From a virus (lineage: Duplodnaviria > Heunggongvirae > Uroviricota > Caudoviricetes), in the IMG/VR virus record IMGVR_UViG_2671180433_000011: a stretch of DNA of 5,385 nt; one strand, 5' to 3'. This document shows, piece by piece, positions 1-5,385 of this stretch; positions within the stretch are counted from its first letter, which is position 1, and the number at the start of each line of letters is the position of its first letter. Position numbers and translations under genes: made by a program. The notes beneath the pieces are model-generated. The model saw nothing but the letters and a program-made list of their open reading frames with translations, did no database searches and was not told where the DNA came from.

Positions 1-282
1 ATATCCAGGACTGGCCGGCAAACCGGGTACGCGATCTGTTGCCCTGGAAAGTTGATCTGAGCTCTCAGTAAATATCAATACGGTTCTGACGAGTCGCTTA
101 CCCTGCATCTGTGCCTGCAGCCAGTCTTCCGGTGCGATACGAAAATACGCCTCCGGCTCTGCAGAAATATTCACACAAGGGATATACCACTCCCCCTCCG
201 GCGTGCTTATCACGAAGCCGCACGACTCCGCAGGCGCACACCGCCGGGCATGCGCCAGAATCGCTGATTCAGTCTGTGTCAT
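1..282 (-). CDS. K: Tail tip assembly protein K, N-terminal part; K-like sequence is recognisable only for about 97..282 (ORF stays open to the window edge)
   Basis: Hand translation from the ATG at 280..282: MTQTESAILAHARRCAPAESCGFVISTPEGEWYIPCVNISAEPEAYFRIAPEDWLQAQMQG, which matches my recollection of the lambda gpK N-terminal region. After MQG (plus coordinate about 100) it reads KRLVRTVLIFTESSDQLSRATDRVPGLPASPGY and lacks the expected MPN/JAMM H-S-H-P motif. Not in the ORF track because it is truncated by the window edge. Confidence 0.65.
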   Translation of the reverse strand, partial: MTQTESAILAHARRCAPAESCGFVISTPEGEWYIPCVNISAEPEAYFRIAPEDWLQAQMQGKRLVRTVLIFTESSDQLSRATDRVPGLPASPGY

Positions 283-292
283 AAACCGGGAT

Positions 293-991
293 TTACTGCG
301 AAAGTTTATTAATGGAAAGGAAACCGCCAAAATTAGCCACCATGCCGCGCATCTCACACCCGCGCATGCACTTGCTGCATCTGTCCTTACGGATATCGGT
401 GGTGGGTTTATCGAACTCATCCGCCACAGCCCCGCCCGTGTAACCACACTCATCAGAGCGGTAGGTCCACATACAGGTGTTCGCCAGCATGATGCGACCG
501 GGAAACAGCGCCCCGTCCGTCTCGGTCGGTGTGGCCAGCACAAACGAGGCTGTCATGGCCGTCAGCTCTGACATCTGCTCCACCACCCAGCGGTCGCTCA
601 GCTCCTGCTCCGGGTCCGCTTCCGGATTGCCCGCCACAAAATTCACCGCATCCAGAAAACGGGCATACACCCGGCGGCGGACCACCGTGGCCCCCACCAG
701 GCTCTGCAGGTCCTCCGCCATCCCGGTGACCAGACCAAACAGATTGGACACCGTCAGCGACGGTCTGGCACTGCTGCCCTTCCCGTTCATCTCAAAGCCA
801 CTGCCGTCAATCGGGTATGCCTGGTACTTCCGCCCCTGCCAGGTCACCGGCTCCCCTTTTTCATTCAGCTCATTGCAGAAAAAATACCGCTCACCGCCCT
901 GTACCGTCAGGTCGATTTCCCAGAGTACCACCCGCGGTGACTGCTCTGATTTAACCGACTCGCTCAGACTTTCTTCGTGAATATCCTGCAT
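293..991 (-). CDS. L: Tail tip protein L (minor tail protein with a C-terminal Cys cluster)
   Basis: 232-aa ORF MQDIHEESLSESVKSEQSPRVVLWEIDLTVQGGERYFFCNELNEKGEPVTWQGRKYQAYPIDGSGFEMNGKGSSARPSLTV..., the same length as lambda gpL. The C-terminal cysteines (…CMWTYRSDECGYTGG…DRCSKCMRGCEMRG) are consistent with the reported gpL iron-sulfur site. An AGGTGGTGA Shine-Dalgarno lies 4-5 nt upstream. Confidence 0.93.
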   Translation of the reverse strand: MQDIHEESLSESVKSEQSPRVVLWEIDLTVQGGERYFFCNELNEKGEPVTWQGRKYQAYPIDGSGFEMNGKGSSARPSLTVSNLFGLVTGMAEDLQSLVGATVVRRRVYARFLDAVNFVAGNPEADPEQELSDRWVVEQMSELTAMTASFVLATPTETDGALFPGRIMLANTCMWTYRSDECGYTGGAVADEFDKPTTDIRKDRCSKCMRGCEMRGMVANFGGFLSINKLSQ

Positions 992-1320
992 CAGTTCACC
1001 ACCTGCTTAAACTCCGCGCTGAACTCAACGCGCAACATCCCGACCCGCGCAGACCACCCGGCACAGGTCACCTTTATCTGCCGGTATGCATAGGGTGGCT
1101 TCCACAAAAATGCCTTCCAGCCACCGTGCTCTGCCAGGAACGCTTCCAGATGCCGGGCCTCCTCCCGGGTCACGGAAAGCGTCACCCTGTATGTTTTCAG
1201 GTCAGCATTCAGCCCTGCCGCCATACGCTGTGAGTACCCGTCACCAAAACGCACTTCACGCACCGACGGCTGCGAGTTCACCTCCATATCCGGCTTCACT
1301 TTCCAGCGAAAGGTTTTCAT
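991..1320 (-). CDS. M: Minor tail protein M
   Basis: 109-aa ORF MKTFRWKVKPDMEVNSQPSVREVRFGDGYSQRMAAGLNADLKTYRVTLSV..., the same length as lambda gpM and recalled as closely similar. ATGA overlap with the H stop and a 1-nt TGATG stop/start overlap with L indicate translational coupling. A GGGAG Shine-Dalgarno lies upstream. Confidence 0.93.
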   Translation of the reverse strand: MKTFRWKVKPDMEVNSQPSVREVRFGDGYSQRMAAGLNADLKTYRVTLSVTREEARHLEAFLAEHGGWKAFLWKPPYAYRQIKVTCAGWSARVGMLRVEFSAEFKQVVN

Positions 1321-1757
1321 CCACCGCTCCCTGATAACATACCGCCATCACGCAACTGCAGCCGGAGTTCATCCTGTGCCCCCTTGCGGGCCATCTCATA
1401 CACCGCTTTCATCAGCTGCGGCCCTGCCCGCCCGTTGGGGCCGTCGTTCTGAATCACCACGTGATTGTTCTGATTAAAATTAATGCCTTCCGCCCGCCGC
1501 ATCTGCGCCGGACTTCCGGCACCGCCGACATAACCACCTTCCGCATAGCCCCGCATCAGGCGGTACAGATTGCCGACACCAATCCGGCTGGTCGCCTCCT
1601 TCGTGAAGACAAACTCCCCGCGATGAACAATCCCCGCAGGTTCATATTTACCCCCCCGTCCCCGTAAATCCCCCGGTCGCGAAATGGAAGTTCGCCGCCG
1701 CAGCCTGAATGGCCGTCCCCGTGGAGGCAGACGCACCACCACCGAAAGTACCGCCAA
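1317..1757 (-). CDS. H: Tape measure protein H, extreme C-terminal fragment ORF (true H coding about 1317..1650; upstream part is a different frame of the preceding fragment)
   Basis: ORF from the track containing ...KYEPAGIVHRGEFVFTKEATSRIGVGNLYRLMRGYAEGGYVGGAGS...LRDGGMLSGSGG*. Its stop TGA (1317..1319) overlaps the M start. Confidence 0.5.
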   Translation of the reverse strand: MAVLSVVVRLPPRGRPFRLRRRTSISRPGDLRGRGGKYEPAGIVHRGEFVFTKEATSRIGVGNLYRLMRGYAEGGYVGGAGSPAQMRRAEGINFNQNNHVVIQNDGPNGRAGPQLMKAVYEMARKGAQDELRLQLRDGGMLSGSGG

Positions 1758-2823
1758 TGGCGCTGCCGATACTCCCGACTATCCCCACCATCGCCTGCTT
1801 CAGAAAAATCTCTGTCAGCATGGACAGCACAGAACGGGTGAAACCACGCCAGTTCTGTTCGCTGCCGGTCAGCATCGCTGCCATATTCTGTGCAATACCG
1901 TCAAAGGTCTGCGTGGCCGCGTTTTTAACCTGCGAAAAACTGTCCGTCGCACTTTCCGCCCACTCGCCCCAGCCGGACTTCATCCCGGCCATCCAGCTTC
2001 CACGAAGCTGCTCCTCCGCAGACCAGGTGTTCTTCAGTGCAGATGTGGCCTTCGCCAGCGCAGCCGGATTATCACCGTACACCTCACGAAGGCGCTGCTC
2101 TTCCGACTCCCGCTGCGCCTGACGGTCAGTGAGGCCGCGGGCTTTTGCGCTGATTGCCGCCTGCTTCGCGCTCTGCTGCTGTTCAAACCGCGCCGCCTGC
2201 TGTGCCAGCTCATTCAGCCGCTTCTGGTGTTCAATCTTGTCTCCCAGCTCAGCCAGCTGGCGTTTGTACTCCAGCGTCTCTTTCTCATGAGCCAGCAGGG
2301 ATTTTTCCTGCTCAGATAACTGCCGTTTCGTGGCGGCCTCTTTCAGGACCACATACTGACTTTCCGCTTCCCATAAATCCCGGCGCTGCTGGCTGATTTT
2401 CTCATTCACACCGCTGTGTTTTTCCAGCGTCCTGAGCTCGGTTTCAAGCGCCAGCATGGCTGCATGCGCCCGGTCTTCCTGGCGCTCACCGGCAGACACC
2501 TTCACACCTGACGGCTTTTTCAGCGTCGATTCATAATCCTTTTTTGCCGACGCCATCAGCGTGTTGTAATCCGCCTGCAGGATTTTTCCGTCTTTCAGGG
2601 CCTTATTCAGCTCTTTCTGACGGGCGGTATATTTATCCAGCGGCGTCTGCAGGCGCTCATACGCCTTCTGCGCCTCTCCGGTATACTTCAGCTGTGACGC
2701 CTCACGCTCAGCCCGGTCCCTTGCCGCCAGTTCACCGGCTTTTTCCATATCCGACTGCAGCGTGGCCGCTGCCAGACCCAGACGGGCATTTTCCCGGTCA
2801 TCCCATGCATTTCCGCTTCCCAT
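1648..2823 (-). CDS. H: Tape measure protein H, central/C-terminal fragment ORF (its first ~5 codons are junction-derived)
   Basis: 391-aa ORF from the track. After MGSGNA it reads WDDRENARLGLAAATLQ... through ...AAAANFHFATGGFTGTGG, then stops at a TAA created by the extra base in the C7 run. Confidence 0.55.
   Translation of the reverse strand: MGSGNAWDDRENARLGLAAATLQSDMEKAGELAARDRAEREASQLKYTGEAQKAYERLQTPLDKYTARQKELNKALKDGKILQADYNTLMASAKKDYESTLKKPSGVKVSAGERQEDRAHAAMLALETELRTLEKHSGVNEKISQQRRDLWEAESQYVVLKEAATKRQLSEQEKSLLAHEKETLEYKRQLAELGDKIEHQKRLNELAQQAARFEQQQSAKQAAISAKARGLTDRQAQRESEEQRLREVYGDNPAALAKATSALKNTWSAEEQLRGSWMAGMKSGWGEWAESATDSFSQVKNAATQTFDGIAQNMAAMLTGSEQNWRGFTRSVLSMLTEIFLKQAMVGIVGSIGSAIGGTFGGGASASTGTAIQAAAANFHFATGGFTGTGG
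2361..2808. repeat. Tandem direct repeat, copy A (448 bp; variant allele) inside the tape measure gene
   Basis: Aligns base-for-base with 2810..3257 at a constant offset of 449. Both flanks are identical; 11 mismatches are confined to A-coordinates 2509..2616. Confidence 0.95.
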
Positions 2824-4340
2824 AAATCCCGGCGCTGCTGGCTGATTTTCTCATTCACACCGCTGTGTTTTTCCAGCGTCCTGAGCTCGGTTTCAAGCGC
2901 CAGCATGGCTGCATGCGCCCGGTCTTCCTGGCGCTCACCGGCAGACACCTTCACACCGGACGGCTTTTTCAGCGTCGCTTCATAATCCTTTTTCGCCGCC
3001 GCCATCAGCGTGTTGTAATCTGCCTGCAGGATTTTCCCGTCCTTCAGTGCCTTGTTCAGTTCTTCCTGACGGGCGGTATATTTATCCAGCGGCGTCTGCA
3101 GGCGCTCATACGCCTTCTGCGCCTCTCCGGTATACTTCAGCTGTGACGCCTCACGCTCAGCCCGGTCCCTTGCCGCCAGTTCACCGGCTTTTTCCATATC
3201 CGACTGCAGCGTGGCCGCTGCCAGACCCAGACGGGCATTTTCCCGGTCATCCCATGCCCCCTGAAGGTTCGCACGAAAAGAGGAGGTCTTTCCCCGGCGC
3301 TGGCTCCGGCTCTGGTACCACTGCCATTTTTTATCCGCCTCATCAAATGCCTTCTGCGCACTGGCGAGCATATCCGCTGAGGATTCAGGACGACCGATAT
3401 CCAGAATGGCATCCCACATCGATTTGAATGCCTTCCCTGTTTTATCCGCCCAGGTCTCCAGTGTTCCCATGTTTTCTTTCAGGCGACGGGTCTGCTCATC
3501 AAAGCCTTTCGTGGCGATATCGTTCGCCGCCTGCAATGCCCCGGCCTCGTCTCCGGAACGCTGCAGCTGTGCAACATACGCAATCTGCTCTGCCGTCACG
3601 TTACGGAACTGGCGCGCCATCGCCATCAGTCCCGACGTCGGGTCAGTGGTCAGCTTCCCGAAGGCTTCAGCGACTTTATCCACCTCCACACCGGATGCAG
3701 ACGCAAAACGCGCGACACTCTGGTTGATGGCATCAAACTGTTCACCACCACGCACACCGGCATTCACCAGGGCTGCCAGTGACTCTCTCGCCTGGTTAAA
3801 CGTCAGCCCTGCTGCCTGCCCGGCTCTTGAGAGAGTCAGCATACGATCGGCAGTCAGTCCGGACTGATTACCGGAAAGAACCAGGGTTTTATTAAACGCT
3901 GAAAGCGTGGAATCTCCCTGGTACCAGGCGTACACCAGCGCACCTGTCGCCACCGCCAGCGAGGTGACCCCGACCATCGGCAGGGTGATCGCACCGGCAA
4001 GCCCCCTGAACATGGGGATCATCCCGCCGAAGGAGTCCTTCACCTGACCGCCCTGTTGCAGCAGGATCAGCCAGGGATTCTGACCACCGGCAAGCTGCGT
4101 GGCGATATCCGTAAACTGTGCGGGCAGGGTTCGCATGGCCGCTTTATACTGCCCGACGGAAATCCCGGCTTTTTGTGCAGCCAGCGCCTGGCGGCTCAGG
4201 CCCTGTTCAACAGCACTGGCGGTTTTTCTGGCGTCGGTATCCAGACCTGAAAAATGACGCCTTACCCGGCTCATCTGCTCATCGAAACGGACAGCATCCA
4301 GACTCAGGTCAATAACAAGATCACCAACCGGCTGGGACAT
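2688..4340 (-). CDS. H: Tape measure protein H, N-terminal fragment ORF (true H coding about 2810..4340; the last ~40 codons, 2688..2809, are out-of-frame read-through into repeat copy A)
   Basis: 550-aa ORF from the track. The sequence is H-like up to ...QQRRDLWEAE, then becomes MHGMTGKMPVWVWQRPRCS... exactly where the reading crosses the repeat junction at 2809/2810. Confidence 0.55.
   Translation of the reverse strand: MSQPVGDLVIDLSLDAVRFDEQMSRVRRHFSGLDTDARKTASAVEQGLSRQALAAQKAGISVGQYKAAMRTLPAQFTDIATQLAGGQNPWLILLQQGGQVKDSFGGMIPMFRGLAGAITLPMVGVTSLAVATGALVYAWYQGDSTLSAFNKTLVLSGNQSGLTADRMLTLSRAGQAAGLTFNQARESLAALVNAGVRGGEQFDAINQSVARFASASGVEVDKVAEAFGKLTTDPTSGLMAMARQFRNVTAEQIAYVAQLQRSGDEAGALQAANDIATKGFDEQTRRLKENMGTLETWADKTGKAFKSMWDAILDIGRPESSADMLASAQKAFDEADKKWQWYQSRSQRRGKTSSFRANLQGAWDDRENARLGLAAATLQSDMEKAGELAARDRAEREASQLKYTGEAQKAYERLQTPLDKYTARQEELNKALKDGKILQADYNTLMAAAKKDYEATLKKPSGVKVSAGERQEDRAHAAMLALETELRTLEKHSGVNEKISQQRRDLWEAEMHGMTGKMPVWVWQRPRCSRIWKKPVNWRQGTGLSVRRHS
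2810..3257. repeat. Tandem direct repeat, copy B (448 bp; lambda-like allele) inside the tape measure gene
   Basis: Same alignment as copy A. A single junction base (a, 2809) separates the copies. Copy B continues in frame into unique upstream H sequence. Confidence 0.95.
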
Positions 4341-5192
4341 ATCTCACACCTCCCGGAATCCCCGCTGAAGCCATCATTAATGCGGCATCATCCACCATGA
4401 CATCCGCCACATCCGCAGACGATAAAATATCGCGCCCTCCGTCCCCACCGAACCGGACGCCTCCGGCAAGTCCTGCCGCTTTCTGCATCAGCATTTTGTC
4501 CTCATCCGGCCTCTCCACCTGCTCTTCCTCATGCCGGGGGACAAGCAGACTGAAATCAGAGGGATGCATATCCGGATCGCAAAAAAACAGGCTGAGTACA
4601 GCGTACGTCAGCCCGGAAAAATGCATATCCAGCTGGGTATCCTGAAAATAATGCGTGCGGTAAAAACGGTGCCAGTCGGCATATTCGGTGGATGTCATCC
4701 CGGCAAGCATGGCGCGCCAGTCGGGTCTCCCCATCTCACGCGCCAGTCTGAGGGCAAAGTTCAGCTCGCCGTCGAAGACTTTCCCGCAGAAAAATCATCA
4801 TCAGTCAGCGTGTTATTTTTCGCCACTTCAGTAATATCAGTATCCGGACGAACAACTTCGATCATCCCGGACAGGCACAACACCACGTCTTCCGCCCGGG
4901 CAATGGCATCGGCAGGCCAGGTGGTGAGCACTTCCTGCTCTATCTTCATCACGGCCTCATTCATTGACGGTGACCCCGTTTTCTGCGGATGGTTATGCCA
5001 CAGGGACATCGCCACCAGAAACGCGCCGGTTCTGACGAGATCTTCCACGCTTACCTGCAGGTTGCCGCTGGATTCTGCCTGTTCTGCACGCCGTTTCAGG
5101 AGGGCAAGATGCTCGATACGCTGCAGCGCAGACAATTCGGAAAGCGTGACAGACACACCGTTATATTCAAATTGTTCTGTTTTCAGAAACAT
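4321..5192 (-). CDS. T: Tail assembly chaperone G-T fusion, made by programmed -1 ribosomal frameshift (T-frame part about 4321..4785)
   Basis: The -1 frame downstream of the slip site reads VFDGELNFALRLAREMGRPDWRAMLAGMTSTEYADWHRFY..., matching recalled lambda gpT. The T frame has no separate start context and is entered from G at GGGAAAG. ORF-track entry 4321..4734 is the Met-initiated subset of this frame. Confidence 0.88.
4348..4353 (-). promoter_or_regulatory. Shine-Dalgarno sequence (GGAGGT) for tape measure gene H
   Basis: Minus-strand GGGAGGTG lies about 6-8 nt upstream of the H ATG at 4338..4340. Confidence 0.55.
4761..5192 (-). CDS. G: Tail assembly chaperone G
   Basis: 143-aa ORF beginning MFLKTEQFEYNGVSVTLSELSALQRIEHLALLKRRAEQAES..., recalled as closely similar to lambda gpG (about 140 aa). 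Position between V and T/H is as in lambda. The slippery heptamer lies 5 codons before its stop. Confidence 0.92.
   Translation of the reverse strand: MFLKTEQFEYNGVSVTLSELSALQRIEHLALLKRRAEQAESSGNLQVSVEDLVRTGAFLVAMSLWHNHPQKTGSPSMNEAVMKIEQEVLTTWPADAIARAEDVVLCLSGMIEVVRPDTDITEVAKNNTLTDDDFSAGKSSTAS
4779..4785 (-). promoter_or_regulatory. Programmed -1 frameshift slippery heptamer G_GGA_AAG (G to G-T)
   Basis: Plus-strand CTTTCCC at 4779..4785 is GGGAAAG on the minus strand, in the G zero frame as G GGA AAG. This is the same heptamer and the same position relative to the G stop as the lambda G/G-T frameshift site. Confidence 0.88.
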
Positions 5193-5197
5193 GTATT

Positions 5198-5203
5198 ACC
5201 TCC
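5198..5203 (-). promoter_or_regulatory. Shine-Dalgarno sequence (GGAGGT) for G
   Basis: Minus-strand GGAGGT lies 5 nt upstream of the G ATG at 5190..5192, between the V stop and the G start. Confidence 0.6.
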
Positions 5204-5205
5204 GT

Positions 5206-5385
5206 TTACCCTGCAGCGCCCGCTTCAGTAACGGTGACTTCAGCCACTGCGGCGAACTGACCATTTCCGCTCACCACAGGGATCTGCACCTTACCTGTCG
5301 CCACGCCGTTTACCGTAATTGTCATATCTTTCACACTAATGGTGGCTTTCGACGGATCGGCGGAAACCGCTCTGAACGTCTTGTC
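5206..5385 (-). CDS. V: Major tail protein V, C-terminal part (5' end lies beyond the right window edge)
   Basis: Hand translation of the minus strand from 5385 down to the TAA at 5206..5208 gives ...[59 protein letters not shown], which matches my recollection of the Ig-like C-terminal domain of lambda gpV. It sits directly upstream of G as in lambda. Not in the ORF track because it is truncated by the window edge. Confidence 0.85.

What the first reader, a model, noticed from the sequence alone, without database searches (positions are those of the whole stretch)
1..115. K gene appears to lose K-like sequence about 62 codons in: possible deletion endpoint or prophage boundary
From the ATG at 280..282 the translation is K-like through ...EDWLQAQMQG. 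Immediately afterwards (plus coordinate about 95..105) I expected ...EIVALVHSHPGGLPW... with the MPN/JAMM H-x-H motif, but the sequence reads KRLVRTVLIFTESSDQLSRATDRVPGLPASPGY with no histidine. The frame stays open by chance over only about 32 codons. On the plus strand a different frame is open from the window start to a TAA at 69..71 (…IQDWPANRVRDLLPWKVDLSSQ*), which could be the 3' end of a flanking gene. In an intact lambda-like module K is followed by I and the large J gene, so a junction here would mean the distal tail genes are deleted or replaced.
Basis: partly seen in the sequence, partly recalled or inferred. Interest (0 to 1): 0.45.

Follow-up and report, generated by a model that had tools for sequence, protein, structure and literature searches.

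The report
Insertion sequence splits phage tail gene K
The phage tail gene K stops looking like K after 61 codons because a common 2.7-kb jumping element (ISCro1, IS66 family) landed in it; the draft contig simply ends inside that element, the rest of K and the next tail genes sit on another contig of the same assembly, and the event is ordinary.

Summary
On the minus strand, K reads normally from the ATG at 280-282 through ...EDWLQAQMQG (codon 61, window 102-100). It then loses all K similarity. A + strand frame ends at TAA 69-71.

The interpretation (deletion endpoint or prophage boundary, distal tail genes lost) is wrong. Window 1-101 is 100% identical to the last 101 nt of the 2,699-bp IS66-family element ISCro1. 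It holds the last 22 codons of transposase TnpC and the terminal inverted repeat GTAAGCGACTC.

The window is a whole draft scaffold, CYBE01000102.1 of E. coli assembly GCA_001286205.1, and it ends inside this repeat. A second contig of the same assembly, CYBE01000111.1, starts at the same IS end. It carries the complete IS, then the 8-bp target duplication GATGCAGG, then K codons 59-247, gene I and the start of J.

Removing the IS and one duplicate copy restores a K gene 744/744 nt identical to the intact K of sister assemblies. This is therefore a recent, simple ISCro1 transposition into K. It should inactivate tail-tip assembly in a prophage that probably already has a frameshifted tape-measure gene. 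Known element, known gene, known mechanism: low interest.

The parts
1..101 (+). Right-hand (tnpC-proximal) 101 nt of a 2,699-bp IS66-family insertion sequence (ISCro1). The window/scaffold ends inside the element.
   Evidence: 100% identical to the last 101 nt of the ISCro1 copy in NZ_AP022177 and to rc(L014 1-101) of the same assembly. 2,932 E. coli records match, annotated 'IS66-like element ISCro1 family transposase'.
3..71 (+). Last 22 codons plus the stop (TAA 69-71) of the IS66-family DDE transposase TnpC.
   Evidence: IQDWPANRVRDLLPWKVDLSSQ* equals the C-terminus of the 523-aa TnpC (WP_000381395.1). The full protein from L014 hits DDE_Tnp_IS66, DDE_Tnp_IS66_C, zf-IS66 and LZ_Tnp_IS66.
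72..101 (-). Terminal inverted repeat region of the IS. It reads GTAAGCGACTCGTCAGAACCGTATTG... on the minus strand, starting at 101.
   Evidence: It pairs with the left end GTAACCGGCTCATTTAAACCGTCTGG of the same element. The element's ends are defined by 8-bp target duplications in NZ_AP022177 and here.
102..109 (-). One copy of the 8-bp target-site duplication: GATGCAGG on the K sense strand, CCTGCATC on +.
   Evidence: The same octamer directly follows the other IS end at L014 2700-2707.
102..282 (-). 5' fragment of tail-tip assembly gene K (nt 1-181, codons 1-60 and the first base of codon 61), the N-terminal half of the MPN/JAB domain. Read into the IS it gives a 96-aa fusion ORF that lacks the H-x-H motif.
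   Evidence: 181/181 nt identical to intact K in seven sister contigs. Prok-JAB hit on profile positions 3-59/114 only. Fusion ORF length from the reconstruction.
293..991 (-). Gene L (minor tail protein L), intact, immediately upstream of K.
   Evidence: 232-aa ORF. Pfam Phage_tail_L, and the exact protein is found in 13 contigs.

Best explanation
A complete 2,699-bp IS66-family insertion sequence (ISCro1: tnpA, tnpB, tnpC) transposed into K of a lambda-like E. coli prophage. It duplicated the 8-bp target GATGCAGG (K nt 174-181, codons 58-61). In the window, K is on the minus strand and the IS lies to its left with tnpC on the plus strand. The short-read draft assembly broke inside this multi-copy repeat. 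The scaffold, which is the whole window, therefore ends 101 nt into the IS. The IS body, the rest of K, I and the start of J lie on another contig.

Shown: the element's identity, its exact ends, the duplication on both sides, and perfect restoration of K on in-silico excision.

Inferred: the consequences. K is cut before its JAMM H-x-H motif and NlpC/P60 domain, leaving a 96-aa K'-IS fusion ORF and a 189-aa remnant that starts at the ATG within the duplication. With about 2.7 kb of antisense IS DNA between L and I/J, the prophage should not be able to assemble tail tips or make infectious particles.
For: - Window 1-101 is 100% identical to the ISCro1 3' ends in E. coli genomes and plasmids, and the + frame equals the TnpC C-terminus.
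- Identity to intact K stops exactly at the IS terminal base, with the IR GTAAGCG....
- The window equals NCBI scaffold CYBE01000102.1 of GCA_001286205.1 over its whole 5,385 nt.
- The K remnant MQGEIV...ACM (189 aa), predicted from an 8-bp duplication model, exists as CTU07370.1. It lies on CYBE01000111.1 of the same assembly.
- That contig starts at the IS terminal base and overlaps window 1-101 exactly. It carries the entire IS with Pfam-confirmed TnpA/TnpB/TnpC, then GATGCAGG, then K, I and the J start.
- Removing the IS and one duplicate copy gives a K gene 744/744 nt identical to K of sister assembly contig L006.
- Sister assemblies with identical L and K 5' ends have intact K-I-J.
- An independent ISCro1 insertion elsewhere in K shows the same 2,699-bp element with an 8-bp duplication (TACCACTC) and K', I and J on the far side.
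- The literature reports a 2,699-bp ISCro1 with an 8-bp TSD (PMC12115866).
Against: - Physical linkage of the two contigs is inferred from the 101-nt overlap, the matching 8-bp duplication and the complementary K halves. No read or long molecule spanning the IS was seen.
- J beyond its first 17 codons was not seen, because the contig ends there. Loss of distal J or the tail fibres by another event is not excluded.
- The functional consequences (no tail assembly, polarity on I and J) are inferred, not tested.
- The junction was not found in 5,426 complete E. coli genomes, GTDB representative genomes or metagenome contigs. It rests on one draft assembly, for which the collection records the same contig in two samples.
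Confidence: 0.95

Rival explanations
1. IS-associated deletion or rearrangement: the IS abuts K codon 61, and the DNA distal to it (rest of K, I, J) has been deleted or moved.
For: From the window alone nothing lies beyond the IS end, because the contig stops at window position 1. ISCro1 copies can mediate recombination and deletions on plasmids (PMC12115866).
Against: The same assembly holds the complementary junction, with an identical 8-bp duplication, followed by K codons 59-247, I and the J start. Excision in silico restores K perfectly. A deletion would remove the duplication and the adjoining K sequence.
Confidence: 0.03
2. Prophage boundary: the prophage ends within K and the + strand ORF is a flanking host gene.
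For: K similarity ends abruptly and an unrelated gene's 3' end follows.
Against: The 'flanking gene' is the IS66-family transposase TnpC, present in up to 26 places per genome on both chromosomes and plasmids. The break falls exactly at an IS terminal inverted repeat, not at an att site. Phage genes K', I and J resume after the IS.
Confidence: 0.01
3. Assembly chimera: the K/IS junction is an artefact of short-read assembly or scaffolding rather than a real insertion.
For: The scaffold demonstrably contains one scaffolding artefact: a single N at 2809 flanked by a 448-nt overlap. Both contigs end at or within the repeat.
Against: Both junctions fall exactly at the IS termini and carry the 8-bp duplication expected of IS66-family transposition. 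A random misjoin would not produce these. No N lies near either junction.
Confidence: 0.01

Closest known systems
ISCro1 (IS66 family; tnpA-tnpB-tnpC) insertions in Enterobacteriaceae
   Same: Same 2,699-bp length and 99.85% identity to the NZ_AP022177 copy. Same three ORFs with IS66-family Pfam domains. Same GTAA... terminal repeats and 8-bp target duplication, as reported for ISCro1 in PMC12115866.
   Different: Only the insertion site differs. This K nt 174-181 site was not seen in 5,426 complete E. coli genomes.
ISCro1 insertion in K of the lambda-like prophage of E. coli WP7-S17-ESBL-04 (NZ_AP022177)
   Same: Same element in the same orientation relative to K. It also splits K and leaves K', I and J on the far side, with an 8-bp duplication.
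   Different: An independent event at a different site (duplication TACCACTC, about 93 nt into K) in a prophage with a different tape-measure allele.
Bacteriophage lambda gpK (MPN/JAMM + NlpC/P60 tail-tip assembly protein)
   Same: The restored 247-aa protein has Prok-JAB and NLPC_P60 domains and the HSHPGG motif. It sits in the lambda gene order V-G-T-H-M-L-K-I-J.
   Different: Here the gene is interrupted after codon 61. The window holds only the N-terminal half of the JAB domain, without the metal-binding H-x-H.

Membership tests
IS66 family insertion sequence (ISCro1) | Three ORFs, tnpA, tnpB and tnpC, with an IS66-type DDE transposase | tested here: met
   L014 carries TnpA (HTH_Tnp_1), TnpB (TnpB_IS66) and TnpC (LZ_Tnp_IS66, zf-IS66, DDE_Tnp_IS66, DDE_Tnp_IS66_C), all above the Pfam cut-offs. 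The window holds the last 22 codons of TnpC.
IS66 family insertion sequence (ISCro1) | Terminal inverted repeats beginning GTAA | tested here: met
   Left end GTAACCGGCTC..., right end (reverse complement) GTAAGCGACTC..., with partial complementarity over about 25 nt. That IS66-family IRs start with GTAA is from my own knowledge of ISfinder and Han et al. 2001, which could not be read here.
IS66 family insertion sequence (ISCro1) | 8-bp target-site duplication on insertion | tested here: met
   GATGCAGG flanks both ends (window 109-102 minus strand; L014 2700-2707). An 8-bp TSD for a 2,699-bp ISCro1 is reported in PMC12115866.
IS66 family insertion sequence (ISCro1) | Near-identity to named ISCro1 copies over the full length | tested here: met
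   2,699 nt, with 4 mismatches to the copy annotated 'IS66-like element ISCro1 family' in NZ_AP022177. Not compared directly with the ISfinder reference entry.
Lambda gpK-type tail-tip assembly protein (Prok-JAB + NlpC/P60) | N-terminal MPN/JAB domain with an H-x-H metal motif | tested here: not met
   Not met for the window's fragment: the Prok-JAB match stops at profile position 59/114 and there is no H-x-H. Met for the restored gene: HSHPGG, profile 3-113.
Lambda gpK-type tail-tip assembly protein (Prok-JAB + NlpC/P60) | C-terminal NlpC/P60 domain, and position between L and I in the tail module | tested here: met
   NLPC_P60 lies on the 189-aa remnant on L014, followed by Lambda_tail_I. 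L lies immediately upstream in the window.

The most novel reading that the evidence does not exclude
The most novel reading not excluded concerns the 189-aa K remnant. It starts at an ATG that lies within the target duplication and keeps the H-x-H motif and the whole NlpC/P60 peptidase domain. It might be expressed from an outward-reading promoter at the IS left end and retained as a free-standing peptidase. A second possibility is that the 5' part of K is a preferred ISCro1 target, since two independent insertions in the same orientation were seen. Neither was tested.
Probability: 0.03. Interest if true: 0.2.

Novelty: already known. Interest (0 to 1): 0.05.

Why it matters
It matters little beyond annotation. 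It shows that an apparent truncated gene or prophage boundary at the end of a draft contig is a contig break inside a multi-copy IS. It also shows how the missing half can be recovered from the same assembly. For this strain, the lambda-like prophage has K knocked out and, if the poly-G call in H is correct, is very probably defective. IS hits on prophage tail genes are a routine step in prophage decay in E. coli.

Tried and rejected
- The junction was searched as an exact pattern in GTDB representative genomes and in metagenome contigs, with no match.
- No complete E. coli genome covers 80% or more of window 1-300, so the junction is strain-specific and the source could not be found by DNA search.
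- Exact look-up of the 550-aa H fragment found nothing. The exact L protein did find the source scaffold.
- Nine guessed K-remnant products starting inside the IS left end were absent from the protein collection. Only the ATG(M59)-start product exists.
- The metagenome contig L015 carrying the same 189-aa product begins AG|ATGCAGG, which is intact K sequence. It is a plain contig break, not a second example of the insertion.
- Han et al. 2001 (PMC95320), the primary IS66-family description, is not held.
- The deletion, prophage-boundary and assembly-chimera readings were considered and rejected (see rival explanations).

Full report
**Observation.** The minus strand of the window carries a lambda-like tail module: V' (partial), G, T, H, M (991-1320), L (293-991), and then K from the ATG at 280-282. 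Translating 282 to 1 gives MTQTES...EDWLQAQMQG, followed by KRLVRTVLIFTESSDQLSRATDRVPGLPASPGY. Plus-strand frame 3 gives IQDWPANRVRDLLPWKVDLSSQ* with TAA at 69-71. Pfam agrees. The window's fragment matches Prok-JAB over profile positions 3-59 of 114 only, whereas intact K matches 3-113 plus NLPC_P60.

**What lies left of the break.** Megablast of window 1-300 against 5,426 complete E. coli genomes splits cleanly. Positions 101-300 match K and L at up to 100%. No record covers 80% or more of the query. Window 1-101 alone matches 2,932 records on chromosomes and plasmids, up to 26 places per genome. More than 1,800 match at 99% or better, and all are annotated 'IS66-like element ISCro1 family transposase'.

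In NZ_AP022177 the same element is 2,699 bp long and carries tnpA, tnpB and tnpC. It ends GTAACCGGCTC... on one side and ...GAGTCGCTTAC on the other, flanked by the 8-bp duplication TACCACTC. It happens to sit in K at a different site, with K', I and J on its far side. Window 1-101 equals the last 101 nt of that element. The + frame is the last 22 residues of its 523-aa TnpC. The IS ends at window 101 and K sequence begins at 102, inside codon 61.

**Why the window stops there.** An exact look-up of the L protein returned a 5,385-bp NCBI record, CYBE01000102.1 of assembly GCA_001286205.1. It is the reverse complement of the window at every base except 2809, which is N in the record. The window is therefore a whole draft scaffold whose end lies 101 nt inside a multi-copy repeat. 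This is the usual place for a short-read contig to break.

**The other side of the IS.** If this is a simple IS66-family insertion, it makes an 8-bp duplication. A 2,699-bp ISCro1 with an 8-bp TSD is reported in PMC12115866. The far junction should then read IS-left-end|GATGCAGG|GGGAGATT..., and the K remnant would start at the in-frame ATG of codon 59.

I built that 189-aa product from the K of sister assemblies and looked it up by exact sequence. It exists as CTU07370.1 on a single contig. That contig is CYBE01000111.1 of the same assembly (L014, 4,142 bp). Read in the K sense:
- It begins at the IS terminal base (GTAAGCGACTCG...) and overlaps window 1-101 exactly.
- It carries the complete 2,699-bp IS, with 4 mismatches to the NZ_AP022177 copy and Pfam-confirmed TnpA, TnpB and TnpC.
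- GATGCAGG follows at 2700-2707.
- K codons 59-247 follow, including HSHPGG.
- Gene I follows at 3267-3848.
- After the usual intergenic stretch comes MGKGGGKAHTPREAKDN, the first 17 codons of J. The contig ends there.

The window's side reads ...CACAGATGCAGG|GTAAGCGACTCG, so the same octamer flanks both IS ends. Joining the window's K nt 1-181 to L014 from 2708 onward drops the IS and one duplicate copy. The result is a K gene 744/744 nt identical to the intact K of sister assembly contig L006. Seven sister draft contigs with the identical L protein and an identical K 5' end have intact K; those that extend further also carry I, and two reach J.

**Interpretation.** This is a recent, simple ISCro1 transposition into K. 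It is not a deletion endpoint, a prophage boundary or a divergent K allele. The element's identity, its ends, the duplication and the perfect restoration on excision are shown.

The consequences are inferred. K is cut before the JAMM motif and the NlpC/P60 domain. This leaves a 96-aa K'-IS fusion ORF and a 189-aa remnant, with 2.7 kb of antisense IS between L and I/J. From established lambda biology, K is required for tail-tip assembly, so the prophage should be unable to build tails.

It was probably already defective. The tape-measure gene H carries a +1 G in a G-run (C7 on the + strand at 1651-1657, against G6 in NZ_CP185789) that ends the frame 121 codons early. Sister assemblies align to the window across that site without gaps.

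**Rivals.**
- An IS-mediated deletion is contradicted by the matching duplication and the contiguous K', I and J on the second contig.
- A prophage boundary is contradicted because the 'flanking gene' is an IS transposase and phage genes resume after the IS.
- An assembly chimera is unlikely, because both junctions fall exactly on the IS termini and carry an 8-bp duplication.

The remaining caveat is that contig linkage rests on the overlap, the duplication and the complementary K halves, not on a spanning read. J beyond codon 17 was not seen.

**Comparison and novelty.** ISCro1, the IS66 family, lambda-type K and IS disruption of prophage genes are all well known. This insertion site is absent from 5,426 complete E. 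coli genomes, from GTDB representative genomes and from metagenome contigs. It is a strain-specific instance of a known process, so interest is low.

**Caveat about the window as a whole.** The apparent 449-bp tandem duplication in H (2361-2808 and 2810-3257, 97.5% identical) straddles the N at 2809. It is therefore a scaffolding artefact in which two overlapping contig ends were butted together. The two sides also differ in relatedness to sister contigs: 99.9% for 101-2808 against about 95.8% for 2810-5385. The V-G-T-H5' half may therefore come from a different lambdoid prophage than the H3'-M-L-K' half.

Noticed in passing
window 2361-3257 (N at 2809 in the source record): An apparent 449-bp tandem duplication lies inside tape-measure gene H (2361-2808 vs 2810-3257, 97.5% identical) and breaks the reading frame. 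The single base between the copies is an N in the NCBI record. This is two overlapping contig ends butted together by a scaffolder, not a real duplication.
   Followed up: yes
window 101-2808 vs 2810-5385: The two halves of the scaffold differ in relatedness to sister contigs L004 and L009: 99.9% for the left half against about 95.8% for the right half. The V-G-T-H5' part may therefore come from a different lambdoid prophage than the H3'-M-L-K' part, or the prophage is mosaic.
   Followed up: partly
window 1651-1657 (C7 on +, G7 in the H sense): A +1 G in a homopolymer run, relative to the intact H of NZ_CP185789 (G6), ends the tape-measure frame at ...FTGTGG*, 121 codons early, and leaves a separate downstream ORF. 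Sister assemblies align to the window across this site without gaps. It is therefore either a real lineage mutation or a recurrent poly-G sequencing miscall.
   Followed up: partly
L001 (NZ_AP022177) 3403-6101: There is an independent insertion of the same 2,699-bp ISCro1 element, in the same orientation, about 93 nt into K of another lambda-like prophage (8-bp duplication TACCACTC). In NZ_CP148289 an IS66-like ISEc22 sits in the tape-measure gene. IS66-family hits on lambdoid tail genes therefore recur.
   Followed up: partly
window 4779-4785 (minus strand): GGGAAAG, the lambda-type -1 slippery heptamer, lies just before the stop of G (ORF 4761-5192). This fits the conserved G/GT programmed frameshift of tail assembly chaperones. 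The T ORF follows at 4321-4734.
   Followed up: no
L014 3620: The partner contig CYBE01000111.1 also has a single N, inside gene I. It aligns to sister contig L006 at only 96.9% with 12 gaps downstream of K, so it may contain a similar scaffolding join.
   Followed up: no
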